Part shown: positions 15,226 through 63,954 of the stretch, piece by piece
How the letters are laid out: each line of letters begins with the position of its first letter
Numbering within the stretch: the stretch's first letter is position 1
NCBI GenBank assembly: GCA_051362555.1
Contig: JBPQGU010000016.1
Span: forward strand, 5,890,001 to 5,954,000
DNA from: Lingula anatina
Taxonomy: Eukaryota > Animalia > Brachiopoda
Length of the DNA stretch: 64,000 bases
Reading direction: 5' to 3'
Program-made: the position numbers and the translations under genes
Notes under the pieces: model-generated
Seen by the model: the letters and a program-made list of their open reading frames with translations, nothing else
Database searches by the model: none
Told to the model about the DNA's origin: nothing

Positions 15226-15407
15226 GTGAACCTCGCGGTGGGTACGTGCGTGCATGTGTGTGTGATAAAGGTGGCAATAACCAGCTTAGGAAGCTGGGGA
15301 GCTTTTGGGGGGTGAGGTGAACCTCGCGGTGGGTACGTGCGTGCATGTGTGTGTGATAAAGGTGGCAATAACCAGCTTAGGAAGCTGGGGAGCTTTTGGG
15401 GGGTGAG
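15226..15407. repeat. Perfect 91-bp tandem duplication in a Meis intron
   Basis: gtgaacctcgcggtggg...gggtgag identical at 15226 and 15317. Confidence 0.95.
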
Positions 15408-16508
15408 GTATGTGTGTACGTGAGCACGTCGTTGCACCGTGTGTAGAAATGGCGACGACTCCTGACCTGGCCTGACCAAGCAGGATTTGTTTAGTGACTC
15501 AACTAGTCCTGATCCGTTACAAAGTACACAAGTCCCTTGGATATTTTATCAGCGCTGGAGGATTAGCGAGTAAAGACAGCCTATGTGATGTATTGACTTA
15601 AGCGCGGATTGGAGGTTGGGCTGCTAGTAGAGAGAAAAGCTGATTATGTTGATCAGCCAGCGCAGTTTTAAAAATATCTCAGGTGTAAGATGCACTGTGC
15701 AGTTGGATCTTCCTTACTAGCACCAAAAGTCTAATTCAATCAGACCCTCACTTAGTCCAAAAACGTATTAGCTAGAGGAGAAAAAGAGATGAATGTGCAA
15801 GCTATGTGAAAGCCATTATGGATAGGGCTAATAGAAAAATGCTGTTTTCTGCAGTGCTACGAGTTTTGTGTTTTACTGTTCATTCTGCCAGAACCCATTA
15901 TTTGCAATAATAATCTGAGCGCAGTCTGATGAGAAGTCATCAAGACCAAGACAGGAAAGATTTTATTGCACAAAAAAATACACCAATTTTCTCCAAAGTA
16001 ATCAGAGACCCTGTGAGTTTTGTGGGGAAACTACGGAAAAACAAAGAACACACAGAAATTAGAGCCATTTTCCTTTGAATTGGAACATAAAGTTTTACTT
16101 TAGCGAGCAAAGTAATTTCAAGCTACGGTTAATGAGGGAGGGACAACAAATGTGCAAGTTGTTGAGAGAAATTGCTTGCTTTTAACATTCATTGTCTTTC
16201 ACACTGAAATTTAATGTCTGCAACCTTTCTACATGCAAATGCAATTTAGCAATAAATATGCTAGCTGGCAAAATATCATTTTCTGCAAATCACTTGCTAG
16301 TCTGCCGATTCATCCATTTTTCATCTCCAATTTATTAGATTGGGAATCCTTTGTAAGCCTCATTGACATTTTGAAATTCATGCTTTTCTACACTGACAAC
16401 CATTATGCAGAATCTGAAACATCTTTGTTGCTAGTAGTTTACAGGTTGGGTGTCTCTCTAGAATTCTACTATGTCACACTAGGCCATTGTGTGTACTAAA
16501 ATCATTGT

Positions 16509-39868: not shown

Positions 39869-41665
39869 CATCCAAGGAATGTCTGTATTTCAAAACGTAT
39901 AACTTACTAACTCTCAAAATTCAGTCATAAATACAAAATTCATGAATATGAATTTTATAAAACTAACATAACTGAATTTTTCAAATCTTGTTGATTGTGA
40001 ATTTTGTGAAGTTATCTGAAGCCTGAAATGTGTAGGATTTTAACATGAAATATAATTTTCTTCCAAAGAAAGCAATTTTAGCTACTTGTAAATTATTGCT
40101 AAATCCATCCCAACACTTAGCTTTCATGTTATGTATCATTTCTAGACAAACCACTTATAATAAAAAATGAAGAAGTCAGATCATAATGACAGTGGAGAAA
40201 TAATAATAAGTAAATATTAATAAAAATATTTTGGAAATCACTTTGAATTTCATATGTGCTTTGTAAGAAAAGTACCAACTTACTCGATCCGAAACCATTT
40301 TTTCTCAATTCAAAGATAATATGAATAACTAATCTAATGTAGATTGCTAGTCTCTAGTTTAGTAATTGTGTTGTACTTTTTAAACTCTGGTAAGATATCA
40401 AACATGGCCAACTCCCAGACATATACACACAGGTAATAACTAAAGAGGAAAAATCTGTAACACAGCTTAATAGCAAATTAACCATGGCCAGAGCTATCAT
40501 TTCCAATGAAAGTCCAACTAATGCCTAAGAGAGAAAGCATGTTCACTTTGCTGGCTGCACATTGGTACCATACTTCATGGTTTTCTATATATTAAAGATT
40601 CATTAAGACATCGTATGACAGAGAAAAACTTTGTAATGTGTAGTTTAATACTTTGTTAATAAGGTTGTGAGTTTTGTACATTTTCTGTATTTGATATTGA
40701 TTACAAAGAGACCTCTGACATTAGGTTATTAAAATTATTTCACATATGTGGATATTTTGTATGTTCATCAAACAGGGCTCAGGAATGTATTCGTCATAAA
40801 CAGTGAATAGAATATTTGATAAAATCTTGAATATTTGTGAGGGAAGCTCAAACAATTAGAAACAATGAGGATTTAAGTTAAAGATTACACTTCAGTATTG
40901 TTTGATTTCATAATTCTGTCAAAGACTTTCATTCCACAACATATTTATTCCATAGCAAGCTGTTCAGACCTAAACCAGTCTGCCCAGCCTACTTACTGCT
41001 TATTCTAAAGAGTGATTATGTTTATCTGTTGTCATCCATTGCTTCATCTACCCCTGTCACAAATGCAGCTTTTCAGAAATAATAGATCATAAATGATGGT
41101 ATATGACACTGTAAAATAAATGGACAACGTGTGATATATGGTTGATATGGCATCTGGGAAAACACGAAAAAGAACAAAAATTGTGTAACTGCAGAACGCT
41201 ATGAGCCTGATTACAGGAAAAAAGAGATTCTGAGTTGCGTTTCAAATAAACATATTGTATGAGTAATGACATGCAAATGTTAGATACATCACACTAGAAT
41301 GTGTTTTGTCTCTAAAGGATGATCAGACAGCTTCAGTTCCAGCTTGATGTTGTTACTGAAGGTGCAGATGTTCTGTTTTCTATATATTAGCCTAATTAAT
41401 AAGACATGGAACTTTGGACTCTAGTTATCAATTAAGCCCATTCAGTATGAAAACGCATTAGTTTTTTTCTCCTGTTTTAAACAGTATTCTTTTTTTAAGT
41501 AGAGATATTACATAGATCGTTAAATATTTCATACATAGAAACAAAAGCTTGTTATCTGTATTGTCATATTAATTATTAAATTATTATTGATATGCTGTTT
41601 TTTTATACTGCTAATAAGATGCACATTTTCCTCATCAACCGGGGTTGTTCAGTTGTACCTTTTTG

Positions 41666-41810
41666 TTGCTATTAAAACATCTTTATTTTATGATGGTTTC
41701 TTAACAGAGCTGTGATATAATTGACTTTGCAATTTTTTTGCTATTTAACATCTTTATTTTATGATGGGTTCTTAACAGAGCTGTGATATAATTGACTTTG
41801 CAATTTTTTT
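41666..41810. repeat. About 71-bp tandem duplication, near-identical
   Basis: acatctttattttatgatgg...ttgactttgcaattttt occurs twice. Confidence 0.92.
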
Positions 41811-43281: not shown

Positions 43282-43335
43282 AAGAATTATAATGTGAATA
43301 GTGTAGCAAAGAATTATAATGTGAATAGTGTAGCA
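43282..43335. repeat. 27-bp tandem duplication
   Basis: aagaattataatgtgaatagtgtagca x2. Confidence 0.9.
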
Positions 43336-45541: not shown

Positions 45542-48500
45542 GTTGTGAACCCCATATCAGCAATAAAAGAAAGTTTAAGTTAAAATGAAGATTGTGAGGA
45601 ATCACTTGGACTGTTGAAGGAGACTGTTTTCAAGTTTTTTTTTGCAAACAGGGCTCATTTTAATTTCATCCAAAGGGATTTATCCAGGAAGCATGGGGGT
45701 CATGCTGCATTGTTCTGTTAGTCCATTAGCAGGAGTGAGGGTGGACAAGAAGAGAGAGATATAGTGCTCAAATCATTTTCCCTAGTCAACAGTGAACCAT
45801 ATACAGACAATGAACAAAGTTTTGTAATTATTATTATTTTGATGAAGAAGGAGAAGAAAAGAAGACGAGGAAGAGGGAGATGAACTTTACAGAAAAAAAT
45901 ATATATACAAAATACCTAATAGGGAGGAGACATTTATTTTTCTGATGCTGAATATTTGTAGATCACTTAAAAATATAAGATAAAAAGAAAAAACAAGCAT
46001 TATTGACTCCAGCAGAACCATGTCATTTTATATAGGTGCAAGATTTTTTTTACTTGTGTATACTAGTGTTGTGATAAGGTGCTGGAACTTACTTCCAATC
46101 ACAAGGTCTTAATTGCTCTTTGCTTGCAGCAATACTTTTAGATCCATTTATACGTATAAACAATAACTCTTTCTCATGAAGTAAAAAAAGAGGGGGGCCG
46201 ACCTGACATGTTTAGTGGCATCATCTTATGCAATATGTTCACTGAAACTTTCCTATTTGAAGCTTTCCTGCCAACCTTTGAAGGAACTTGGGTGTCGCCA
46301 CATTTTTACACAATTTCAGACATGCTGCTGATGCCTTTAGATACCTTTTTGCTGCTTTAAACTAAAACAGAACGCATGTCAAAGTTTCCATAGAAACGAT
46401 GAGCTGTAGGGGAGGCACCTGGCACCAGCTTGGTCATTCCTGTTAAAGTTTGTAACACTTCCACAAATGAAACAGTTGGCAAAACTATGTTGCTTACAGC
46501 AGAAAATCACACATAGGCCTATGTGTATATACATAAATACAATTAATTCACAGAGGTTAAGCGGTAGTTAACAATTTATGCTCTGAGCTGTAGCTCACCA
46601 GACATTGCCTGAAGTTGCAGCCTGCTGCCACAAAATGTCAAGCACAGCATTGAACTTCAGCGGTAACAGATGATGCCAGGGCCAGGACTTATACAATGAC
46701 AATATAAACTAACACAATAATGATTAGAAAAGTAATAGGATTACAGTGATGATATATGTTTTTTTGTGCCTAGCATTAAATGCATATTTATTGTGTGGAA
46801 CCTCCGGGCATTTTTTGGCTCCATTCCTGTAAAGCAATTCTATGGCACAAGTAGTCATTCAGTGAGACTCTGTCAGTCTCCCAATGTCTCTAGTTTTTAC
46901 ATGTAAATAGAGAGGTACAAGTGTACATAAGTGACAATCTCATTCAGTATGAACGCAAGCACTGGAGAGGAGGAGGAAAACTTCGGTGACAGATCAGATC
47001 AGAGTATTACTCTTTTTCTCAGTGAGAAAGGAAAATGAGATCTCTCTGGCAGCCATCATAGGCCTGTGATGTTGTCTGTTTCAACCCACAGGGCCTTAAA
47101 CCATGGTTGAGCCATTTTTTGTGGAAAAATATATAGAATGGCATGCAATAAAAATTAAAAGATGGTTTTATTCACATTCAAGACAATAATATGAGCGTAC
47201 AAAAATCCGATTACAGTTTGGAGTGATATTTCGGGAGGGGTCTTTCAAGATAGAGGGAAAAAAATGCTTGTTTTTAAAAGATGTATTGCATTGGTTTTGA
47301 ATTTATTTGTCTTTAATGTCCATTTATGCTGTCATTGATTTATTATTTCCATATAAGGCTGTCACTGAATTATTATTTTTAAGTTTCTAACTAATTTTCT
47401 TCATGGCAAGACTGTCCAAAACCCCTGTTGTCTGCGGGGAAATAAGAGCACCCTGGGTTTCAGAAACATGTTTCAGACTTACATCTTCAGCGGGGCATGT
47501 CTGTCTCACCCTTTAGAAATCTGAAACTCGGGGGCAGAGGGTTTGACTTTTGGTTGCTTTTTTCAGGTCACATGGGTGGTCACATGAGTGGTCACATGAG
47601 TGGTCATTTGAGTGGTCATTTGAGTGGTCACATACTAGTGGTCACATACTAGTGCACTTTTCCATTATTTTTTCTCTCACGTCTTGTTGTCCCATTCTTC
47701 ATGTTAAATCAGCATTTTCAAAGGTGATGTCAGTTAAGATTTAATGGCAATTTACCTGCATTGTAATAAACATAAATTTTGTTTAATTCTAATTGTGCTG
47801 TTATTGTATATGTTTCTAGTTTTTGGGGGGAATGGTTGTGAAACTGTCATCAACTTGTACAGTTTTAGTCTTAGATGCAGTATTATCGTAGAGTGGACAG
47901 GATTTGGCCATTTTTTTAGAAGTTGCATCAGCTTCTATCTATGTACTCTTTTTTCCTTTATTTTTTCTTATTTCTCCTTTTATTTATTTTCTTTATTATA
48001 ATTTTTTTGCCTTACAAAATGTTATTATATTTGGTTGAAAGGAAACAGTATTAGACGTAGTGTTTATCAGTTATAGGAAACTTGGCAGATAGTGAGGGCT
48101 ACTGGCATACACGTGTATATTTATATACAGACGCTAGAAACCCAGATTAGACTATACAACGGCACACTTTGAGTTTAGAACTAAAATGAATAGAATGCAT
48201 TATTTTTAAGCAATTTATTGAACCAAAGATTTCAACAGTCCTTGATCTGTTGAATAGAGGGGAGATGCTGATGTAGACTTAGATACCTGGTGAGGAAAGT
48301 ATTTTTAAAACAAGCTCTGTCTTTGTAGGGACATTCTCTAACTTCTCCCATTCTCTTTTGAAGTCGACATTTTTGTCAAACTTCGTTTGAGACACAGTGT
48401 TGACAAGGGTAAATGTAGCTGCGGATAGATAGGGGGGGATGCAGTTTTCTTTGAAGTTTGAATTTGACAAGCATTACTTTTCCCAGTCATGATTCGAATA

Positions 48501-52303: not shown

Positions 52304-52371
52304 ATGACATTTATTCGCTGGGTCATTTTCTGCCTTTTGATATTCACAAAGAAAAGCAGAGAAACTTGGAG
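52304..52371 (+). CDS. CATSPERE: CatSper subunit epsilon-like, exon 1 (signal peptide)
   Basis: aaaATG; MTFIRWVIFCLLIFTKKSRETW(R) hydrophobic leader followed by WRY as in CATSPERE LWRY; AG|gtaaca donor. Confidence 0.8.
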
Positions 52372-52705
52372 GTAACAATGTAGTAAGAATTTGATTAGGA
52401 TTTTTTAAAGTTACGAGTATTCAAAATTGAGCGAGAAGATTCTGAAACCACCTGGCATCCTAGCGCATCAATATCTTTTTTTTCTTAGAATTTATCGGAA
52501 ACTCACTGAATACCAGTGTATTTAATAAGGACATCATGTGATACTCATACTGTTTTGTTGTAAAAGATGTGGCCAGAACAGGGATTAAAAATGCTAGTTC
52601 AGAAAATGATATCATTCAACCACACTTCATGAATTGAATTTCTCAAATTTAACACTGCCAGAATTTACTGATGATTTATGGTGATTTCTGTTTATGATAT
52701 TTTAG

Positions 52706-52754
52706 ATATGGTAATGAAATTGGGCAATCAGAACTTTTCAACACAAGAAATCCA
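52706..52754 (+). CDS. CATSPERE: CATSPERE-like exon 2
   Basis: tttag/gtaagt; (R)YGNEIGQSELFNTRNP, cf. human RYSTN...IFSTRST. Confidence 0.82.
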
Positions 52755-52960
52755 GTAAGTAACACACTCTTGTTGATACTTTCTGTGAAAATCTAGACCT
52801 TTAAAGTGTACTCCATCATTTTCTGCCAATGCTACATAATATAAACATTGTACTACTACAAGGCTGGTTCTGTAACATAAAAATTTGCATGATTGAAAAC
52901 AAAAAAATCTGTAGCAGTAGTGATTGCTTTTCAGTGAATCTTTTCTTTGTGATTTGTTAG

Positions 52961-53043
52961 ATCAAGCTAGAGTATTTGTTTGAACAAGATGGAGTAGAGA
53001 TAGAATGGCACATAAATGGAAATTGCGTTGTCTCTAACAAGAG
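52961..53043 (+). CDS. CATSPERE: CATSPERE-like exon 3
   Basis: ttag/gtaaaa; IKLEYLFEQDGVEIEWHINGNCVVSNK, cf. human IKLEYEG...EW..PETCFVLNK. Confidence 0.87.
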
Positions 53044-53376
53044 GTAAAAATGATTTATTTGCATAAAAATAATAAATCTAGTTTTCTTCTTCACTGTCCA
53101 TATTTCCTCTATATGGGAAGTTTTGAAATGAATTCATTATGGCTAAATCAGTGAATAGAGGGGATTTTTATCATTTGAATTAAATAAATGTGAACATTTA
53201 TTTATTATCTCTTTATAAAACATTTAATTATATATTTGACATATTTAAATAATTTTTATTTCTTGTATGACCTGGTTCAGGTTAATGTTATTTATAAATA
53301 AGGAGTGGGAAAGATGCTTGAGATAGAAATAATTTTACTTATAGCTTCTGTGATAGTTTTAGTGCTTTTTTCTCAG

Positions 53377-53434
53377 TTCTCAAGTTGCCTCCCTGACTTG
53401 CAGTAAACCAGGACAGTATAAAGTAGATCTTAAG
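53377..53434 (+). CDS. CATSPERE: CATSPERE-like exon 4
   Basis: tctcag/gtcagg; (S)SQVASLTCSKPGQYKVDLK, cf. human LRCSSPG. Confidence 0.82.
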
Positions 53435-53708
53435 GTCAGGAACTGGTTTTTAATGTTAACCAACCAAACTGTTATTTCACTACCTGATCAGGCAAACATT
53501 TTTGAAGTAAAACTTAACTTTATAACTTACTGCACTTATTTGTAGTGAAAGAAATAAAGATTTTGCTTTGTTTTATGATAATGAAAAAGTCATTATTGAA
53601 TGTTTCTAGCTGAAGATTATTGTAAATAGAAGAGGGGATTTTTCTCATTTCCTACATGCTTCTCAGCCTTGTAAACTGCTGTAAATTAACATTTTCTTTT
53701 ATCTTCAG

Positions 53709-53803
53709 TTGAACGGCAGCAGCACAGAGGAAGCAGGCCGCTATATAAATGTTCAGGCCTACCACGCCTGTTATCGATGGTACTTGGTTAAAAGCGATAA
53801 TCA
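53709..53803 (+). CDS. CATSPERE: CATSPERE-like exon 5
   Basis: cttcag/gtaagg; LNGSSTEEAGRYINVQAYHACYRWYLVKSDN, cf. human EERYLFVESSHTCFLWY. Confidence 0.87.
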
Positions 53804-54081
53804 GTAAGGGTTATTGTCTTATTGATTAAATAATAGTTTGGAATTTTTTGTGAGTCCTTTTAAATTAAGAAGACACATCTTTAACTAGTTTCAGTAAGTT
53901 AGATATGGAGACATGAATACTTTGACAGAACTTGGAAGTAGAAAAAAAATTAATAGCTGATTGGTATCCTTTGACTACATGGGCCAAGCTTGTGTCTTAT
54001 ACTATAGCAATGTATTTTTCCCTTTTCACAATATTTGTAAAGTCACTGGTACGTTTATTGTTGAATTTATTTCTCTTTTAG

Positions 54082-54139
54082 ATCTTTATCTGTTTCAATT
54101 CATCATGAAAACACTGAATCAACATCAGACCATACCATG
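54082..54139 (+). CDS. CATSPERE: CATSPERE-like exon 6 (GC donor)
   Basis: ttttag acceptor; (Q)SLSVSIHHENTESTSDHTM; ATG|GCAAGT is the donor that gives the phase 2-to-0 bridge needed between exons 5 and 7. Confidence 0.65.
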
Positions 54140-54684
54140 GCAAGTAGAGCAGTGGATTTTTATTGTGGCCCTAATTTTAGTCCCTGATTTTTAATGTCTT
54201 TTTATTAGTCTGGTTTAAGTCACTTGTTAGGAAAATCATGCATAATATGTTTGCATTGAAATGAAGATATACATGTGCTTGTAGCTTTAGGGACTGTTTG
54301 TGGGATTTTGGCTCGGAATTTTTTTCTGGTGTTATTTAAATATTTAAAGTGATTGTCATCATTAGATTTAATGTCTTGTTTATGTGTTTTTAAAGGCTTT
54401 TTTCATGACTTGTCTAGTAAGCAGTTATGATGTTATCTTCATTTTCACTTTGTTTTAGAAAATCAATAAAAAATACAGTTTTTTCAAAACCTAAAAATAT
54501 GATGAAACAGGACTTTCACTCATGATCATAAATGCATTATACATGTACAAAAAAAAAAAAAGACCAATTAAAACATTAAAATGGCTTAAATCTTACAAAC
54601 AGTACCTTTAAACTTTTGACATTAATTTTTGTCATACTCCTTTACTTATAGAATGAAATGTCACATTCTTCTGTCTGACTTCAG

Positions 54685-54765
54685 GATATCTACAAAGTAT
54701 GGGTTGTGAATGATCAGCATGTATCTGCCAGGGAAAGAAATGGTACAGCCCAGATCCCCTCAGCA
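54685..54765 (+). CDS. CATSPERE: CATSPERE-like exon 7
   Basis: cttcag/gtaagt; DIYKVWVVNDQHVSARERNGTAQIPSA, cf. human ITVWAYD...LLGNAEEPS. Confidence 0.83.
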
Positions 54766-55088
54766 GTAAGTATAAATATTGTCCATACTCAGCCCAGATC
54801 CCCTCAGCAGTAAGTATAAATATTGTCCATACTCAGCCCAGACCCCCTCAGCAGTAAGTATAAATATTGTCCATACTCAGCCCAGACCCCCTCAGCAGTA
54901 AGTATAAATATTGTCCATACTCAGCCCAGACCCCCTCAGCAGTAAGTATAAATATTGTCCATACTCAGCCCAGACCCCCTCAGCTGTAAGTATAAATATT
55001 GTCCATACTCAGCCCAGACCCCCTCAGCTGTAAGTATAAATATTGTCCATACTCAGCCCAGACCCCCTCAGCTGTAAGTGTTGATACT
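54746..55088 (+). repeat. 44-bp minisatellite, about 8 copies, spanning the exon 7 donor of CATSPERE
   Basis: unit cagcccaga(t/c)cccctcagc(a/t)gtaagtataaatattgtccatact starting at 54746, 54790, 54834, 54878, 54922, 54966, 55010 and 55054 (last copy degenerate). Confidence 0.97.
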
Positions 55089-55623
55089 GTTTATAGATCC
55101 TCCACAGATGTTAAGAATGTGATTCGAAATATATGGTGTTTTCATTTTAGTTGTTGAATGATAAATATAAACCTTACAAAAAAAGAAAAAAATGGAATTA
55201 AAAGGATTAAAGATGAGAAACTACCTTATTATTTAAAGAAAATTTATTCTGGTGGACGACTGCATGTCAAAAACCTCAAAAACCTATCCCATTTCTTATG
55301 ACCCAAGACAAGGTAAAACTTGCATCTTATTTAAATAAACAATTCTTAATTTTCCAGAAATAAACAAAGCAAATTTACATTTCACGAAATTTGAATCTGA
55401 CTAGCTTAATACCACGCTTTAAGTACAAATAGATAAAAAAAGTTTGTTTCAGAAGATGGACATTTGTTAAAAAAAAAGTTTTAGCTAGCAGGATACATTG
55501 TCACCACTGAAGTTCTCAAAATTCAATACCAATAAATTGACAAAAGAGAAACCAATAAACAAAGAAATTTAATGGTCTCAGATGTAAAGTAAGTTAGTCA
55601 CCAGTGTACATAATATCCCAGCC

Positions 55624-57093
55624 TTACTCAAGGTATTTGAACTTTTTGACAATGTGATGGTCAGAGTCTGCCACATACACATGCCCGTCATTGGTCACTG
55701 CTATCCCCCTGGGCCAGTGGAGAGGGCTGCCTGTGCTTTCAATACACAACACGAACTGACCGTTGCGGTCAAATACCTGGACTCTGTTGTTATACTGGTC
55801 TGCCACCAGAATATGGCCGCAATGGTCAGCTGCCACTCCCTGGGGCCCCCGGAACTCCCCCTTTCTGTGCCCCTTCTGACCAAAGTTGAAAAGGTAGTTC
55901 CCCACCTCATCAAACACGTGGATGCAGTTGTTTGAAGTATCTGAGACCACGATACTGTCGTCATCCATGACACACACACAGTTAGGGCCACGGAAGTTTT
56001 TTAATCCTCTTCCGCTGACTGTTTGTATTTGTTCCCCGCTGGTGTCCGAGAGGATGTAGAGACACTTTCCAAACAGGTCAGCCACTATGATCTGATCCTT
56101 GCTGTTAATAGCCAGGTGCATCCCACACTGGAAGGGTTGGGTGGCCATGCTCACCTGTTCTCCCGTTTTTGTTAGTTTTGCGATCGTGTTCACACACCCT
56201 CCCAGATGCTGGTCTTTCTTCATCAGAGGACAGATGAGCATGTCGTCAGAACTGCAAACAGCAACCCCCACGGCGTTGTAATCTTTCAGATCACCGTCCA
56301 GTTTGAAGTGACTCTTGAAAGTTCCAAGTTCGTTGAAGATCTGAACCCGACATAGCTCGTCGACTACGTAAACATCCCCTGTGAGGTCTACTGTGAGGGT
56401 ACGAGGAAAGTTGAACAGCCCAGGTTCTTTTCCTTTTCCGCCAAACCAAAGGACAGGATCATTGCTCTGTACGTCAAACTCAAACTGACTTCCTCGTACT
56501 GTAGTCTTGTTGTCAATCGGGTTGACGGACCCGTAGTGCATGCCTGAAACCTGGGGCTTGAAGTGAGCAGTGTATGTGCCGTCTTCATTGTCTTGAACAG
56601 CACACTTGATGACATCATTGTATTTGTCCCTTATCTCAACTTCCACTGGGTAACCAGATAGTGCCACCTTGCTGCTGCTGGAGAGTGTTATGTCCACTGT
56701 GGACGTGAAACCTGCTGTGGCGGGAACCGTCTCAACCTGGACCACTGCCGGGAGCTGCTTTTCGTCATGGCGGACTTGGATGTATTCCTGGGCAGACGAC
56801 ACATACTCTACGCAAGGACCGCTGTCAAACTCGATGTAATTTTTCCCAGAGTCTGTGTGGGTGTTGTTGTACTCCTGGACCTTGTTTTCCAACATTTTGC
56901 AGTGTGTTGTTGCCATGGTGACGAGGTTTGGGACGTCCAAGTCTCGTAGCGCAGCGTTGTATACTTGTACTGTGCTGTCCATACAGAGGATTTGGCTCTC
57001 ACAGGAATCTATGTGCTGGTCAAGATGTTTGGATTTCTCTTGAAATTTCTCCTGAATGGTGGTGGTGACTTCCTGGTGTTTTTTCTTTATGAC
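55624..57093 (-). CDS. TRIM-NHL protein, coding exon 2: coiled coil, filamin/Ig domain, NHL repeats
   Basis: tttacag acceptor in phase 0; VQDNEDGTYTAHFKPQVSGMH filamin signature; NHL motifs FNFPRTLTVD, FRGPQGVAADHCGHILVADQYNNRVQVF, LHWPRGIAVTNDGHVYVADSDHH; about 772 aa in total; minus-strand AATAAA at 55243-55248. Confidence 0.93.
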   Translation of the reverse strand, partial: VIKKKHQEVTTTIQEKFQEKSKHLDQHIDSCESQILCMDSTVQVYNAALRDLDVPNLVTMATTHCKMLENKVQEYNNTHTDSGKNYIEFDSGPCVEYVSSAQEYIQVRHDEKQLPAVVQVETVPATAGFTSTVDITLSSSSKVALSGYPVEVEIRDKYNDVIKCAVQDNEDGTYTAHFKPQVSGMHYGSVNPIDNKTTVRGSQFEFDVQSNDPVLWFGGKGKEPGLFNFPRTLTVDLTGDVYVVDELCRVQIFNELGTFKSHFKLDGDLKDYNAVGVAVCSSDDMLICPLMKKDQHLGGCVNTIAKLTKTGEQVSMATQPFQCGMHLAINSKDQIIVADLFGKCLYILSDTSGEQIQTVSGRGLKNFRGPNCVCVMDDDSIVVSDTSNNCIHVFDEVGNYLFNFGQKGHRKGEFRGPQGVAADHCGHILVADQYNNRVQVFDRNGQFVLCIESTGSPLHWPRGIAVTNDGHVYVADSDHHIVKKFKYLE

Positions 57094-57295
57094 CTGTAAA
57101 TAATAATATTACTGTAACTTCATAGGCTGTAAGTAAAATTGATCACTATTGCATAAGTGTAGTTATACATTTTTTCACACCTTATCTGATCAAAAGCATA
57201 ACAGTGGGGAAAATGTATTTCCTTTTTAACTTGAAGAACATATTTAATTAAATAGATATTATATAGTAAAACAGTTGAAAATAAGTATTAATTAC

Positions 57296-58144
57296 CTCTA
57301 TCATTTTAGCAAATATTTCGTCAGCTTTCTGCAGGGCTGTCTTCTTCACACTTGCCAACATTTCTTTCTCTGCCAGCACATCTTCCACATGCATCTGCTT
57401 ATCACTCACCGCCTGTTTTACACAGACGATATCTTTGCGTAGTTTGTCAGCCATGATTTCTCCAGCTTGGTATATGTCGCAGATGTCATGGTCGCTGTGG
57501 TTGACCATCGTACCTGATTCTTCAGTGGCTGGAAAGTGGTTGAGTTTTGTGCCACTTGGTGCAGATTTCGTGGTGTTAAAAGATTTTTCGCTGCTAGTTT
57601 CATTTTCATCATCAGCGTCAGTTGTATGCTGACTTTGATGATCGTCATCTAGGTCTGTCCCATTGTTGCTTTCTAATTCTTGATGACGTAGGTTGTCCGA
57701 GTCGACACTTGTTGTGCTACCATTGTGTTGAGCAATTTCATTGGTTGTGTTGACATTGTTGACAGTTGTTGCCCTGGTAACTGCATGGGAACAGATATCG
57801 CAGACAGTTTTTTGACAAGTTTTACAAAACCCTGTAACGTCCTGCCCTGGATGCTCTGAGCAATGGACTGACTGAGAGCCAACATTTCTATGATCTGAAT
57901 TGTGAATTGTTTCAATTAACTCCACCAAGTTGGTCTTTCCTTTAAGCTCTTGAATATGTGAAGTATAATCAGGATCTTCTCTGTTACGGAACAGTAACAG
58001 TAGAGAACAGTCTGGACAGAGCTCATGGTCAAATGGCAGGTGTGTTAACTGAAGGTGCTGGTCAGTGTCTGAGGGGTACTGTGTGGTACACACCTGGCAA
58101 ACTGAAGACCCCTCCTGATAACAGCTATTGTCTGGGCTGTCCAT
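57296..58144 (-). CDS. TRIM-NHL (TRIM2/TRIM3-like) protein, coding exon 1: degenerate RING, B-box with insertion, start of coiled coil
   Basis: acceptor ttttcag|cccacaATG (exon starts 58150); MDSPDNS...CSEHPGQDVTGFCKTCQKTVCDIC...HSDH...AKMIE; donor GAG|gtaat; 283 codons. Confidence 0.8.
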
Positions 58145-59621
58145 TGTGGGCTGAAAATAGAATTGTTTACTGTCATTGGTCAATAAATTTAAACAAGATG
58201 AATATTGATAAATTTCCACAAACTTTGTTTTGTTAGTAATACTGTAAATTAAATGATTCTGAAGTTTTTAAAAGTGATTTGGCTTTGTGACAGAAATTAT
58301 GTTATTTTATAACATAAATGATTAAGTTTGAAAAAATTAGATATTTAAATAAATTTTGAAAATTTCAAATAATTATGGTAATATTTGGAAGTTGACAGCC
58401 TGGTGATTTTTTGGGCGGGGGGGGGGGGGTCACAATAGCTGTTGTCAATATTTCAACATTGGTTCACATTAAAACTTAATTTATTGCACCTAAAGAATTT
58501 TAAAGTTTCTATCTTCAGACTATAGTGTTACTGAGAGGCAAAACCTTCACTTGGCCTTGCTATTACACTCTATTGTAACTGCCCAGATAGCATGTCTCTG
58601 GTGGATTGTCATGTATAGATGGCAGACCAGTATGTATATATGTAGAACAAATGACAGCTTGGATTTAGTTGAACGCCCTGTGTACAAGCTATCTATCAAT
58701 CAATACCCCACACAGTCCCATCCCAGCCAATCTATTCAGATTATGAAATTTAACTTTGATAATTTCTGCCCCTAAGCCTTGTAACTAAGGCCTATCAAAT
58801 CAGCTCTTAACAGAAATCAACACACAAGTTAACTTTCATAGAGGCTATACTGACTCACATCTGGTAGACTAATGTAAATCTCATTTATACACTCCAGTTA
58901 TATTTTAAATCCCTGAACTGATTTATTTCAGCATGTTCTCAGTACAGTATGCCTGGTGTAGCCTGCTTGTTACTATGGCATTTGTCATTAAATGATAAAG
59001 TTGCCAACGAGGTAAAAAGCGTAACCCACCTGTTCTGTGCCTGCTGCCCTGTACCTGTGTTAACGTTGCTATGCAGGGAACATTTGTAGACTTATCGATG
59101 AACTTGAGATAAGAGCAGCCAATAGTTTGTGCTGAGCAAGGGAAAATCAATATGGCTAAACACTTAAAAGGGTTGCAGTCTAAATCAATAAGTTATGAAA
59201 ACGATCCGGGATCAATCAATAAGCTGATGTGCACATAGATTATTTTACTAGGGGTGTGGGACTGTGAAGTGCAATTTTTCACCCATTGGGCCATGTTGAT
59301 CTAGCATGTGATCAAGATTTTTGATTTTTACCACAAAAATGGGGTCATGCTCATTAAGTTGAATTATTGTTATGGCATTATAATTTTTATCATATCAGTA
59401 ATGTATGGTTAATAAACGTAGCTATTCTAAGTGTGATTTTTTAAACAAAAGTTAATTGTTAAACTAAGGAAACATTTTAATGTCTATATTTCATAATGTT
59501 GGTGCAAATGTATGCAGTTTTAGGCATGTAAGAAGTACATCAATAAGTTAACAGTCATTATTTTAAAGTTTTTTTTCAAATTTTCATCTCTTTTCTAAAT
59601 AAATTCCTGCACAATTTCCAG

Positions 59622-59746
59622 TATTCCCAAGTCCTAAGCAAACAATTCCATTACCTGGGCCAGCAGCCTCATGTTCAGTTTGCCCTGCAGTCCAAACATA
59701 TGCCTCACAGAGAGGTCACCTTGCGGGAATTTGACCAGAACTTGGG
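59622..59746 (+). CDS. CATSPERE: CATSPERE-like exon 8
   Basis: ttccag/gtgagg; YSQVLSKQFHYLGQQPHVQFALQSKHMPHREVTLREFDQNL(G), cf. human SIVLSTQMATLGQKP. Confidence 0.85.
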
Positions 59747-60025
59747 GTGAGGAGTGTATTTTTCCCTACCTCTGGAAATTACTAAAACTTGGTTTTTGTT
59801 TGAAATATGAAGAAAACCTTTTTAATGAATCAACTTAATACTGTAAGATATGTTGTCTGACTGAAGTTTTAAAAAAATGGGATTTTTTTTTACTGAAGTA
59901 TGAATAAAAGATTATCATTAAGATGATTTAAACTGAAATGGAATTATATTAAGCATCTTCAATGACAGTGAAGAGGTTTGTTACTCTCATTCAAGTCATT
60001 GTTTTCGTTTCTTTTTTGCATACAG

Positions 60026-60124
60026 GATTTGGATATTTTCAATTTCTTCCCACCCTGAAGATGTACAAACAAGCTTTAAGATAATTGGCAAACGACCAGT
60101 CGCTGTTTATGAGTGCTTCATAGA
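60026..60124 (+). CDS. CATSPERE: CATSPERE-like exon 9
   Basis: tacag/gtatgt; (G)IWIFSISSHPEDVQTSFKIIGKRPVAVYECFI, cf. human GTWRI...IRGNQVTFQDCFI. Confidence 0.83.
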
Positions 60125-60375
60125 GTATGTAAACATCACTTGATTTTATTCCATTTTATTTACTTTTAATTAACTTATAATTACTTGAAATTTTCTTTTC
60201 ACAAAGATAAATCTAAAAATTTCAATTAAATTGATTATCTTTGTTTGTAGTTCATTGATATGTAGAGTATATAAACAATTATTTCATTTAATTTTTTTAA
60301 TGCAAAGATAAGAAATTGTGTGAGGAGATCTTTCCATAGTCAGAAATTTATTTGTATATTGTTTGTATTTTGTAG

Positions 60376-60436
60376 GGACACATTTATTTTGCAACCAGAA
60401 GAGAAATACCAGATGATGAGAGAATCCAGAACAGAG
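60376..60436 (+). CDS. CATSPERE: CATSPERE-like exon 10
   Basis: tgtag/gtatag; (E)DTFILQPEEKYQMMRESRTE; phase 2 to 0 fits its neighbours. Confidence 0.7.
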
Positions 60437-60584
60437 GTATAGAATTTGGTTTTCTTCATTTAAAGTTAAAGTACCTAAATTTTTGTATCAGAACAGTGCA
60501 TCATATGTGATTGTAATAGACTAATAGTTACTAATTTGAAATTTTGCTATAAAACCTTGAAAGCAAAGCTCCATTTCTTTTTAG

Positions 60585-60629
60585 GACAGTATTTTCACTG
60601 CCAATAAGATCAAGCCTAGGATGATGAAG
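60585..60629 (+). CDS. CATSPERE: CATSPERE-like exon 11
   Basis: tttttag and AAG|gtaagc; DSIFTANKIKPRMMK; phase 0-0. Confidence 0.65.
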
Positions 60630-61068
60630 GTAAGCAACCAGAGGGAGGTCACTGGTATTTGTATTATTGAAGCAAAAATTACAAAAGAAAAATGAAAATG
60701 GTTTATATTAGGATGCTGTTGCTTTAAAACAGCAGAGCTTATGAAAGAAATGTGAAATTTTTTTTGCATATATATACCAAATATGCCTAACTCTGTAGGG
60801 CCTTTTTCGCTGCCTCTCTTTTAAAGTTCTTTTATATATATGGCAAGTAGAGTACATAATATTATGTCACATTACTTTATGTTGGGTAAATATTTGAATA
60901 CAGGCAACCTCTGACCGAGTAAACATGACCATGAAGATAAAAGAACTTGGTGAGAGAAGAGGTCCACGTCTTCATTTTTGCACATGTCCTTATTTGTTAT
61001 TAAATCTGTCAATTTATTTCGCCATTTTGATCTCATTATGCCAACATTTCTCTCCCTTTCTCCCCCAG

Positions 61069-61106
61069 GATCCCTGCATGCAAAATGTGGCTGTAGTTTT
61101 AGCCAG
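61069..61106 (+). CDS. CATSPERE: CATSPERE-like exon 12
   Basis: long pyrimidine tract plus cag, AG|gtag donor; DPCMQNVAVVLA, cf. human DACVVASAVLV. Confidence 0.78.
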
Positions 61107-61525
61107 GTAGTCTAGCTGGTTGTTCTCTTGGGCAGGAGTGTCCTTGTGTGTTGTTCTGCTTATGCTAATTCCATTTGTGTTGTATATTTGGATATTTACT
61201 TTGTATTCATTTTATGATATTGTTTGGTGCTGTTGCTTCTTTATTTAATGTTTTATATTGAGGAAAATACTTTGGAGAGGTTTTTTTTTTATTGTAATCC
61301 ATGTAAAATGTAGGATAGCATTATTGTTTTTATTTTTAAATTTTTTCATACTCAGCAAATAATTTGAAGCACAAAAAGTGCATTTTAAGTCCTGATCATT
61401 CTGAAACCATAATATGGATATTTTACTGCATTGTGTGCATATTTGTTGATTGTGTATTGAACTCTATTTACAGTTTTATTTCAGTTACATCTGTATGAAT
61501 TAAATAAAAGCCTATTGTATTCCAG

Positions 61526-61595
61526 GGATGAGCTGTTAATGTCCCAGGATAACTTTGCCAGTACCCAGCACTTGGGTGTGCCTGCAGGATTCCAG
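61526..61595 (+). CDS. CATSPERE: CATSPERE-like exon 13
   Basis: ttccag and CAG|gtatt; (R)DELLMSQDNFASTQHLGVPAGFQ, cf. human TTDSFKSWTRIRVP. Confidence 0.78.
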
Positions 61596-62125
61596 GTATT
61601 TCCATTGTGTTGGGATGTTCCCCTGGCTCTCCTAACACAATCTATATGTTACACTTACTGCACATTACTTGATTCCATCACACTGGTGGACAGGGGTATT
61701 CTGATGTTCATTCCATTAAAGTTAATCTTGTTTTCCTACATACCCCTGCAACTTTCAGGTAAAAAAGCTGATGATCAAGTAAGAAATGGATAATTGGACA
61801 ATTTTGTCTTTTTGACACCTGGAACAAAGTACCTTTTATTGGTTCACATGCACTTTTATATTTCTTGTGATGCAAGATGTTATCCATTTTAAGAGCAGAA
61901 TTCCTGTAAATTTAATAGTTATTTTTTTATAAACGGGGAGGTCTGGCAGAGGTCACTAAATCTCATAGCATGCTTTTCTTCCCAGCTCTTGGAAAATGGT
62001 CATTTGAATAATTTCTTTCATATGACAGCTCTGTATCAATTCTTATTCCAATCTTAATGATTCCTTGCCCAGGAGACCAAGGGTTATTACTATAAAGGAT
62101 ATTGATATCATTTGATTTCTCTCAG

Positions 62126-62237
62126 GGCGGCCGGACCATTGATTGGGTGACCTTTATAGATGATCATATTGTGCTGCTGATAAATGGAAGTGTTTATCTC
62201 AGGGGGAAAACAAACGAGTCACTCCTGGAAATTGAAG
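62126..62237 (+). CDS. CATSPERE: CATSPERE-like exon 14
   Basis: ctctcag/gtaggt; GGRTIDWVTFIDDHIVLLINGSVYLRGKTNESLLEIE, cf. human IVFLINGVLYIK. Confidence 0.85.
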
Positions 62238-62792
62238 GTAGGTTTTGAATTGATGAATTCTATAAAAACTTGAATTGTGGGAGATATTGATATCGACAAT
62301 CAGCTGGTTGTGACTAATGCTTGTGTCAATTTTTTGGACGGGGGGAGGATTTGACTGGAATAACCTGTGATTTAATTGTATAAGTTTGAGAGCAAAAGTT
62401 AATCGTGTTTATAATGTCATTCTCTGTGTGACAATAATTAGGTATAGAATATAAATGTAGAAACAAGACTTCTAACCTTTGCCCCTCAAATTATTTTGAA
62501 ATTGTTCAAAATGAATTGAAGAACTTAAATCTCAAGATTTTTATTGAACAAAAACCAGAAATCTTGAAAATATTTTGGAATGTGCAATGATTTGTAGACA
62601 AAATACTATTACTACCAACTTTTAAATCATTGTCTAGCATCTTTTTGTTCTAAACCAGATTTTTTAATTAAGCCAATGCACCAATGAATAAATAAAGCTG
62701 TTACCAAAAATTAAAAGAGAAAATATCCATTTATAAGGCAAATGCATAAGTGCATTTTAGTTATTAAACGATATATTGTTTTGTAATGACAG

Positions 62793-62857
62793 GTCTTCCA
62801 GGTGACATCTTGGGTATCAGGGGCAGAGACACCTGCAGTGAGGGGGTGTTAGCACTG
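62793..62857 (+). CDS. CATSPERE: CATSPERE-like exon 15
   Basis: gacag/gtaagt; (G)LPGDILGIRGRDTCSEGVLAL, cf. human LPDGGITGISSRKWC. Confidence 0.8.
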
Positions 62858-63266
62858 GTAAGTATCACACAGGTAGACAAGGATAGAGGGTGAGGGTGGG
62901 GGGTTGAAGAGACACCAGCAGTGAGGGGGTGTTAGCACTGGTAAGTATCACACAGGTAGACAGGGATGGAGGGTGGGGGTGGGGGGTTGAAGAGACACCA
63001 GCAGTGAAGGGGTGTTAACACTGGTAAGTATCACACAGGTAGACAGGGATGGAGGGTGGGGGTTGAAGAGACACCTGCAGTGAAGGGGTGTTAACACTGG
63101 TAAGTATCACACAGGTAGACAGGGATGGAGGGTGGGGGTGGGGGTTGAAGAGACACCAGCAGTGAGGGGGTGTTAGCACTGGTAAGTATCACACAGGTAG
63201 ACAGGGATGGAGGGTGGGGGTGGGGGGTTGAAGAGACACCAGCAGTGAGGGGGTGTTGACACTGGT
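62825..63266 (+). repeat. About 83-bp G-rich minisatellite, 5 copies plus a partial copy, spanning the exon 15 donor
   Basis: agagacacc... unit starts at 62825, 62908, 62991, 63067, 63149 and 63232. Confidence 0.96.
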
Positions 63267-63358
63267 GTCACATTGTTAGATACTAGTACAAGAATATTAT
63301 TATTGTTTTATTATTCTTATTCTTATGTAGAGACTTTTCTATATTTTATTTTTTCCAG

Positions 63359-63487
63359 AGGGAGAACAGCCACTTTGTAGCCTTCAGTAATACCAAGGTG
63401 TATCTATGTACTGCTAGTACAGTGGAGCAGTTAGAATGGCCACAAACACTACTACAACTAGAGAACCTATTATTACAGGATCCACAG
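63359..63487 (+). CDS. CATSPERE: CATSPERE-like exon 16; the gene continues beyond the window
   Basis: ttttccag and CAG|gtaaga; RENSHFVAFSNTKVYLCTASTVEQLEWPQTLLQLENLLLQDPQ, cf. human RRSTFAVWTENEIYL; the 16 exons total 1236 nt with no stop. Confidence 0.78.
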
Positions 63488-63954
63488 GTAAGACATAGGA
63501 ACATATGACTACAGTGTTCATTATATGATCTTATAGTTGTATTATCTGTGTACTGCTAGTACAGAAGCAGTTAGAGTGGTCTGAGACACTGCTACAACTA
63601 GAGAACCTATTATTACAGGATCCACAGGTAAGACATAGGAACATATGACTACAGTGTTCATTATATGATCTTATAGTTGTATTATCTGTGTACTGCTAGT
63701 ACAGTGGAGCAGTTAGAGTGGCCACAAACACTACTACAACTAGAGAACCTATTATTACAGGATCCACAGGTAAGACATAGGATCATATGACTATAGTGTT
63801 CATTATATGATTTTAAAGTTGTATTATCTGTGTACTGCTAGTACAGGGGAGCAGTTAGAGTGGTCTGAGACACTGCTACAACTAGAGAACCTGTTATAAC
63901 AGGATCCACAGGTAAGACATAGGACTTCAGTGTTCATTATGTGATCTTATAGTT
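63401..63954 (+). repeat. About 142-bp tandem repeat, about 4 copies, spanning the exon 16 donor
   Basis: tatct(a/g)tgtactgctagtacag... unit starts at 63401, 63543, 63683 and 63825; CAG|GTAAGA at 63488, 63628, 63770 and 63912. Confidence 0.96.

What the first reader, a model, noticed from the sequence alone, without database searches (positions are those of the whole stretch)
54746..63954. Recurrent pattern: three unrelated tandem arrays each begin inside an exon and multiply its 5' splice site
Seen: units of 44, about 83 and about 142 bp, unrelated in sequence, all start in the 3' part of a coding exon (7, 15, 16), cross the donor and expand into the intron, giving 8, 5 and 4 donor copies. 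These are the only long arrays in the gene and none spans an acceptor. Three of 16 donors being hit looks non-random. Inference: either a donor-anchored mutational mechanism (for example transcription- or splicing-coupled slippage in a germline-expressed gene) or a selective filter in which only donor-side duplications are tolerated because the first donor still gives normal mRNA. Either is a route to new exons and intron growth.
Basis: partly seen in the sequence, partly recalled or inferred. Interest (0 to 1): 0.8.

Follow-up and report, generated by a model that had tools for sequence, protein, structure and literature searches.

The report
Three splice-donor mirage repeats in brachiopod
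In a brachiopod gene that likely encodes a sperm-channel subunit, three exon ends are copied head-to-tail with their splice signals into the next intron; this repeat type is already known from lancelets and humans and is likely harmless because the first signal is probably the one used, but why such repeats gather at splice signals is still open.

Summary
Observation confirmed. A 16-exon open frame (likely CATSPERE, Lingula anatina) carries three unrelated arrays (44, 83, 142 bp) that start in exons 7, 15 and 16 and repeat the donor 8, 5 (plus 1 decayed) and 4 times. Their unit junctions occur in DNA runs of other individuals, so they are not assembly artefacts. All 15 downstream donors would shift the frame or read a stop. 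One RNA pair leaves at the first donor of array 3; that is the only direct splicing evidence. The class is known: amphioxus "mirage" minisatellites and human F7/CBS/IFI6 VNTRs; this scan noted it in many other genomes, including several per gene. Donor-only tolerance is not supported: acceptor-side mirages are published and 3:0 gives p=0.17. Tolerance alone also does not explain 3 of 3 on donors rather than inside introns (p about 0.001-0.004, post hoc). Leads: all three sit on GTAAG donors (p=0.036, post hoc), and array 1 diverges stepwise away from the exon. No genome was held, so the genome-wide test is open. New member of a known kind.

The parts
52304..63487 (+). Host gene, coding exons 1-16 (runs beyond the window); likely CatSper auxiliary subunit epsilon (CATSPERE)
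   Evidence: one open frame over 16 exons, 15 GT and 1 GC donor; exon 8 hits PF22843 CATSPERE_NTD2 E=1.3e-4, 22.4 bits, below the 27-bit cut-off
54685..54765 (+). Exon 7; last 20 nt are the exon part of the array 1 unit
54746..55079 (+). Array 1: 44-bp unit (20 exon + 24 intron nt), 8 donor GT at 54766, 54810, 54854, 54898, 54942, 54986, 55030, 55074
   Evidence: unit junction in DNA run X3
62793..62857 (+). Exon 15; last 33 nt are the exon part of the array 2 unit
62825..63266 (+). Array 2: 76-83-bp unit (33 exon + 43-50 intron nt), donors at 62858, 62941, 63024, 63100, 63182 and a decayed one at 63265; G-run (G4-like) motif in 3 units
   Evidence: unit junctions in DNA runs X1 and X4
63359..63487 (+). 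Exon 16; last 87 nt are the exon part of the array 3 unit
   Evidence: 3 of 4 differences in run X4 are synonymous; one RNA pair of run X16 covers about 63387-63489 and then leaves the window sequence
63401..63924 (+). Array 3: 140-142-bp unit (87 exon + 55 intron nt), donors at 63488, 63628, 63770, 63912; exon parts alternate A-B-A-B
   Evidence: donor 1 to unit 2 junction in contigs of X1 and X4
63565..63627 (+). Candidate in-frame cassette (63 nt) inside unit 2 of array 3; use not shown
   Evidence: acceptor score 5.4 against 4.6-12.8 for the 15 real acceptors; 77-nt intron from donor 1 against 148 for the shortest real intron
63677..63769 (+). Candidate in-frame cassette (93 nt) inside unit 3 of array 3; use not shown
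   Evidence: stop-free; acceptor score 3.2, below all 15 real acceptors and reached by 23% of 504 intronic AGs
54798..55073 (+). Seven candidate 12-nt in-frame micro-exons, one before each downstream donor of array 1; use not shown
   Evidence: acceptor score 6.4, no CTRAY-like branch motif at the one tested; the motif is also absent at 10 of 15 real acceptors
55627..58267 (-). Nested TRIM-NHL-like gene (B-box, filamin, NHL) inside intron 7, downstream of array 1; context, not part of the arrays

Best explanation
These are three independent tandem arrays that each repeat an exon end with its donor into the next intron ("mirage" minisatellites), and they are likely neutral because splicing likely keeps using the first donor. 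Shown: unit anatomy, no sequence shared between arrays, presence in other individuals, loss of frame at every downstream donor. Inferred: each began as a local duplication across the donor and grew by slippage or unequal exchange; new units are likely taken from the exon-anchored end (array 1 differs from the exon by 0,1,1,1,2,2,2 bases with distance; the last intron head has decayed in arrays 1 and 2 while the exon end has not); the upstream-most donor wins as in human F7, so the mRNA stays normal and selection does not remove the arrays. The excess on donors most likely reflects a general tendency of junction-spanning repeats to arise or expand, as reported gene by gene in lancelets, inflated by post hoc choice of this window; its cause is not shown.
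For: Anatomy. Real in DNA runs X3, X1, X4 (3 laid of 11 DNA rows). 15 of 15 downstream donors non-productive. One RNA pair ends about 2 nt past donor 1 of array 3 and starts 14 nt upstream of the array, in unique exon sequence (depth bins). Exon 16 alleles differ mostly at synonymous sites (3 of 4), so the frame is still under constraint. Precedent: F7 pseudo-donors are functional but silent (PMC1557585); mirages do not disturb splicing and show concerted evolution that spares boundary units (PMC3087553); two donor-side arrays at consecutive exons of lancelet PGBD5 (PMC3902484).
Against: RNA evidence is one pair; 15 reads in all were laid from 5 of 9 RNA runs, none at testis-like depth, and the first donor of array 1 lay in neither stretch laid. 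In human IFI6 and CBS two pseudo-donors are used besides the real one, so silence is not guaranteed. Uniform placement plus tolerance gives p=1.2e-3 to 3.6e-3, so neutrality alone leaves the position unexplained. 14 of 73 acceptor-to-donor intervals inside the arrays are in-frame and stop-free. The monotone gradient is seen in array 1 only; array 2 is not monotone and array 3 alternates.
Confidence: 0.72

Rival explanations
1. Donor-anchored origin: transcription or early spliceosome (U1) engagement at strong donors promotes local duplication and repeated re-copying of the exon-end unit in the germ line.
For: 3 of 3 multi-copy arrays on donors, beyond placement plus tolerance; both intronic duplications of >=40 bp stayed at two copies; all three on GTAAG donors, which are 6 of 16 (p=0.036, post hoc), including both donors with 8 of 9 matches to the recalled U1 consensus; homogeneity ends at +6 and +2 of the last donor in arrays 1 and 2 (8 of 24 and 36 of 50 mismatches beyond, against 0 of 20 and 1 of 33 at the exon edge).
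Against: n=3 and post hoc; acceptor-side mirages exist; no shared breakpoint motif or fixed distance to the donor (20, 33, 87 nt upstream); 5 mapped Meis1 exon ends and 13 other donors of this gene have no array; testis expression not shown; boundary units escaping homogenisation is ordinary repeat turnover.
Confidence: 0.15
2. Composition or chance: arrays arise anywhere but expand best in GC-rich or G-run sequence, which in this AT-rich gene is mostly at exon edges; three hits in one gene are the tail seen when many windows are scanned.
For: Exons 43% GC against introns 29%; units of arrays 1 and 2 are 43% and 54% GC; G4-like runs in array 2; the scan covers some 250,000 windows (tool text of the search of earlier findings).
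Against: Array 3 is 36% GC with no G-run; donors 12 and 13 are as GC-rich and have no array; the 44%-GC nested gene (bin 56001-58000) has no array. Repeat density here is low, so the dense-repeat explanation given in scan notes for other genomes does not fit this window.
Confidence: 0.2
3. The copies are functional: they supply alternative donors or new in-frame cassettes that lengthen or down-regulate the protein.
For: Donor hexamers are intact in 15 of 15 copies except the last of array 2; in-frame candidates of 12, 63 and 93 nt; 6 of 10 differences between exon 16 and unit 4 are synonymous.
Against: Unit 4 holds a stop and unit 2 a 2-nt deletion; intact donors follow from homogenisation; the synonymous excess is what change on the exon's own branch gives; the one informative RNA pair uses donor 1.
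Confidence: 0.06
4. Assembly artefact.
For: Tandem units shorter than reads can be mis-counted; no long read was available here.
Against: Units carry their own variants; junctions are in contigs of three runs from three studies.
Confidence: 0.02

Closest known systems
Amphioxus "mirage" minisatellites (Adh3, globins BflGb6/BflGb9, troponin C, PGBD5); PMC3087553 and PMC3902484, passages read; the original Adh3 paper was not held
   Same: Tandem units of 10-160 bp that span an exon-intron boundary and repeat the splice signal; more than one array per gene (two donor-side arrays at PGBD5 exons 3 and 4); concerted evolution that spares a boundary unit; proposed route to new introns.
   Different: Here in a brachiopod (no report for Lingula came up); three arrays, all donor-side; normal splicing and length polymorphism are only hinted at here, not shown.
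Human donor-spanning VNTRs: F7 IVS7 (37 bp, 5-9 copies), IFI6/6-16, CBS IVS13, LMNB2 (100 bp), PDGF intron 4 (81 bp); PMC1557585, abstract, Introduction and Discussion read
   Same: First unit spans the exon-intron junction; identical pseudo-donors follow; the most upstream donor is used alone (F7, LMNB2, PDGF) or mainly.
   Different: One array per gene as listed there; donor choice was tested by mutation in F7 and is untested here; exon share of the unit is larger here (20-87 nt against 4 nt in F7).
Internal tandem repeats at exon-intron boundaries of primate segmental-duplication genes; PMC2812944, passages read
   Same: Variable tandem repeats at boundaries that can alter splicing and create introns.
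   Different: Those have transcript support for changed structure and lie in recent paralogues; no changed transcript is seen here.

Membership tests
Mirage minisatellite (amphioxus type) | Tandem unit spans an exon-intron boundary of the host gene | tested here: met
   3 of 3 arrays
Mirage minisatellite (amphioxus type) | Unit length in the reported 10-160 bp range, repeats carry the splice signal | tested here: met
   44, 83, 142 bp; GT donors in every unit; range from PMC3087553
Mirage minisatellite (amphioxus type) | Regular splicing is not disturbed | tested here: inconclusive
   one RNA pair at donor 1 of array 3; no RNA at the other first donors
Mirage minisatellite (amphioxus type) | Length instability between haplotypes | tested here: inconclusive
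   loop contig depth 285 against flanks 98-145 in X1 and 53 against 24-33 in X4; the tool states that depth is no copy number
Mirage minisatellite (amphioxus type) | Concerted evolution inside the cluster, boundary unit excluded | tested here: met
   internal intron parts 100% alike in array 1 while the last intron head has 8 of 24 mismatches; same trend in arrays 2 and 3
F7-type donor VNTR | Pseudo-donors identical to the authentic donor | tested here: met
   identical -3..+6 in 4 of 7 copies (array 1), 4 of 5 (array 2), 3 of 3 (array 3)
F7-type donor VNTR | Pseudo-donors functional when the first is inactivated (scanning rule) | not testable with these tools
   needs a minigene or natural mutant
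CATSPERE (host gene) | Pfam CATSPERE domains above the curated cut-off | tested here: inconclusive
   single exons only: 1 of 9 exons scanned hits PF22843 (22.4 bits, cut-off 27); none of 3 exon queries; no PDB hit for exons 5, 8, 16
CATSPERE (host gene) | Testis/sperm-specific expression | not testable with these tools
   tissues of the RNA runs are not given; trace reads only; CatSper is reported in Brachiopoda (PMC6660944, passage)

The most novel reading that the evidence does not exclude
Strong 5' splice sites are mutational hot spots: U1-bound, germline-transcribed donors seed tandem duplications that keep being re-copied from the exon end, so that mirage arrays are enriched at strong donors genome-wide and feed new in-frame cassette exons such as 63565-63627 and 63677-63769.
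Probability: 0.12. Interest if true: 0.75.

Novelty: new member of a known kind. Interest (0 to 1): 0.3.

Why it matters
As a class it is known and probably neutral. Its value is as a clean test case: three independent events in a repeat-poor window, where short introns and repeat density do not explain the position. The lancelet paper calls the origin of such arrays unclear, and eight literature searches brought up no genome-wide test of donor against acceptor against intron placement. If enrichment at strong donors held, splicing signals would shape where DNA duplicates, with consequences for intron gain and exon birth. Such arrays can also mislead gene prediction (as reported for lancelet PGBD5).

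Tried and rejected
Whole-genome test: no genome is held. No RNA holder listed for the stretch; not used as evidence. Homologue searches with exon 8 and exon 16 found no full-length relative; the single phmmer hit P0001 is a repeat-rich protein with bacterial-type domains whose score is summed from 7-of-17 matches, rejected. PDB sequence search with exons 5, 8, 16: nothing meaningful. Protein atlas unavailable. Generic donor/acceptor scan with recalled frequencies missed several real sites and was replaced by frame continuity. First exon 5 end (53779) gave a stop and was replaced by 53803; this choice has no RNA support. Origin from spliced mRNA rejected: the last copies continue with donor GT, not with the next exon. 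Remnant likeness of the last intron head to the unit, beyond the donor, is not significant in arrays 1 and 2 (empirical p 0.15 each; shuffle p 0.16 and 0.04), so decay and a seed made of a short exon-end copy cannot be told apart. RNA run X13 gave no reads, X18 one partial read: no test. A joint 58430-61320 in X3 (24-nt side, G-run) was treated as a low-complexity artefact. A search for the human biobank VNTR-splicing cases that I recalled (UPF3A, NOC4L) returned nothing relevant, so they are not cited. PMC10078293 passages held no placement test. Supplements of the papers were not opened; those of PMC3087553 and PMC3902484 hold the unit alignments.
Full report
Setting. The window holds the 3' part of a Meis1 gene whose last exon is 100% identical to Lingula anatina Meis1, then a + strand gene from 52304 that runs off the end. 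Sixteen exons give one open frame of 412 codons, with a hydrophobic N-terminus, 15 GT donors and one GC donor (exon 5 end chosen for frame). Exon 8 matches Pfam CATSPERE_NTD2 at E=1.3e-4, below the curated cut-off; the other 8 exons scanned in that call gave nothing, nor did three exon queries. CatSper is reported for Brachiopoda (PMC6660944, passage). The gene is therefore likely, not surely, CATSPERE. A TRIM-NHL-like gene is nested on the - strand in intron 7.

Observation. TRF gives the three arrays at the stated places. Registered on the donor: array 1 is 20 exon + 24 intron nt with 8 donors; array 2 is 33 + 43-50 nt with 5 donors and a decayed sixth; array 3 is 87 + 55 nt with 4 donors and A-B-A-B exon parts. 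No array covers a real acceptor; one weak 22-bp two-copy repeat does at exon 3.

Reality. Ten runs of four studies hold the stretch. I laid 3 DNA and 5 RNA runs on two stretches holding one to one and a half units per array. X3 has a contig that runs from unit into last unit and flank, and a loose end that continues as another unit of array 1. X1 and X4 hold intron-part-to-exon-part junctions of array 2 and the donor 1 to unit 2 junction of array 3; in X1 the latter is a 170-nt contig that closes on itself at the 140-nt period. X3 and X4 differ from the window at many sites, so they are other individuals; X1 may be the source. Copy numbers are not established: contig depth hints at fewer turns in X4 than in X1, but is no copy number.

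Chance. With arrays collapsed to one unit, a unit of 44, 83 or 142 nt falls on a donor alone with probability 0.054, 0.106 and 0.133; product 7.6e-4 (1.9e-3 without the nested gene). If only donor-spanning and purely intronic units survive, the product is 1.2e-3 (3.6e-3). Donor against acceptor is 0.17. Window-wide, 3 of 5 duplications with unit >=40 bp are on donors, P=1.5e-4, using 21 donors of which the 5 Meis ones are approximate and the nested gene's is left out. All are post hoc, for a window chosen from very many. The useful point is logical: tolerance cannot by itself explain an excess over intronic positions, which are tolerated too and are 3-15 times more numerous.

Consequence for splicing. 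Each of the 15 downstream donors adds a frameshift or a stop, so the gene works only if donor 1 dominates. RNA evidence is thin: 15 reads in all from 5 runs, 6-25% of each run read. One pair in X16 starts at about 63387, in unique exon 16 sequence, and both mates leave the window sequence about 2 nt past donor 1. Binned depth in X12 fits one pair spliced from exon 8 to 9 (211, 45, 45 bases), an inference since the tool lists joints only from 3 reads. Exon 16 in X4 differs at 4 sites, 3 synonymous. Of 73 acceptor-to-next-donor intervals inside the arrays, 14 are in frame and stop-free: seven 12-nt candidates in array 1 and seven in array 3, the best being 63565-63627 (score 5.4) and 63677-63769 (3.2), against 4.6-12.8 for the real acceptors on a profile built from only 15 sites. 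None is shown to be used.

How the arrays grew (inferred). In array 1 the exon part differs from the exon by 0,1,1,1,2,2,2 bases with distance, and the last intron head has 8 of 24 mismatches while internal ones are identical. In array 2 likeness stops at +2 of the last donor (36 of 50 mismatches). Array 3 is more symmetric. At 63445 the window's exon shares its base with unit 3 while the X4 allele shares its base with unit 4, which fits unit 3 being copied from the exon after the two alleles split. Together this suggests old seeds that are refreshed from the exon-anchored end, though boundary units escaping homogenisation is ordinary repeat turnover. Breakpoints share no motif or distance. 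All three arrays sit on GTAAG donors (6 of 16; p=0.036, post hoc).

What is known. Human F7, IFI6, CBS, LMNB2 and PDGF carry minisatellites whose first unit spans a donor; in F7 the copies are functional but only the most upstream is used (PMC1557585: abstract, Introduction, Discussion). In lancelets such arrays are called mirages, occur at both boundaries, leave splicing normal, vary in length and were proposed as a route to new introns; their origin is called unclear (PMC3087553, passages). Lancelet PGBD5 has two at consecutive donors (PMC3902484, passages). Related repeats at boundaries occur in primate paralogues (PMC2812944, passages). The scan's own notes list the class in sharks, rays, sea urchins, annelids and an octopod, donor-side and acceptor-side, up to seven or twelve per gene or window; these are unchecked notes, from which I took the word mirage and then read the papers. 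None was listed for this genome or for Lingula. Eight searches of the held library gave no genome-wide placement test; most subscription papers are not held.

Verdict. Real, non-random within the window, and a new member of a known kind. Best reading: neutral mirage arrays tolerated through first-donor use (0.72). The donor-only filter is not supported; a donor-anchored origin remains possible (about 0.15) and is the part worth testing. Interest 0.3.

Noticed in passing
window 55627-58267 (-): TRIM-NHL-like gene (B-box, filamin, NHL repeats) nested antisense in intron 7; run X3 differs at 40 sites in a 1976-nt contig and has loose ends near 56973, suggesting a divergent allele or a paralogue family.
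   Followed up: partly
window 54139-54140: Exon 6 appears to use a GC donor with an otherwise full consensus.
   Followed up: no
window 52754, 53803, 54765, 60124: Four of 16 donors have A instead of G at -1, with GTAAG or GTATG after it.
   Followed up: no
window 15226-15409: Exact 91-bp two-copy duplication in a Meis1 intron; it ends at a donor-like site although no exon is mapped there. May be an assembly overlap.
   Followed up: partly
window 41661-41810, 43282-43335: Two-copy duplications of 71 and 27 bp in the last Meis1 intron, far from splice sites.
   Followed up: partly
window 47566-47654: 12-bp unit x6.7 minisatellite between Meis1 and the CATSPERE-like gene.
   Followed up: no
window 683-45538 (+): Meis1 exons with introns of up to 18.7 kb next to a gene whose introns are mostly 150-550 nt; CatSper-subunit-like gene starts 6.8 kb after the Meis1 stop.
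   Followed up: no
window 52952-52996: Weak 22-bp two-copy repeat across the exon 3 acceptor; chance or a decayed acceptor-side duplication.
   Followed up: partly
window 55031-55310, 57935-58198: A few + strand intronic RNA reads in run X12, antisense to the nested gene or its 3' flank.
   Followed up: no
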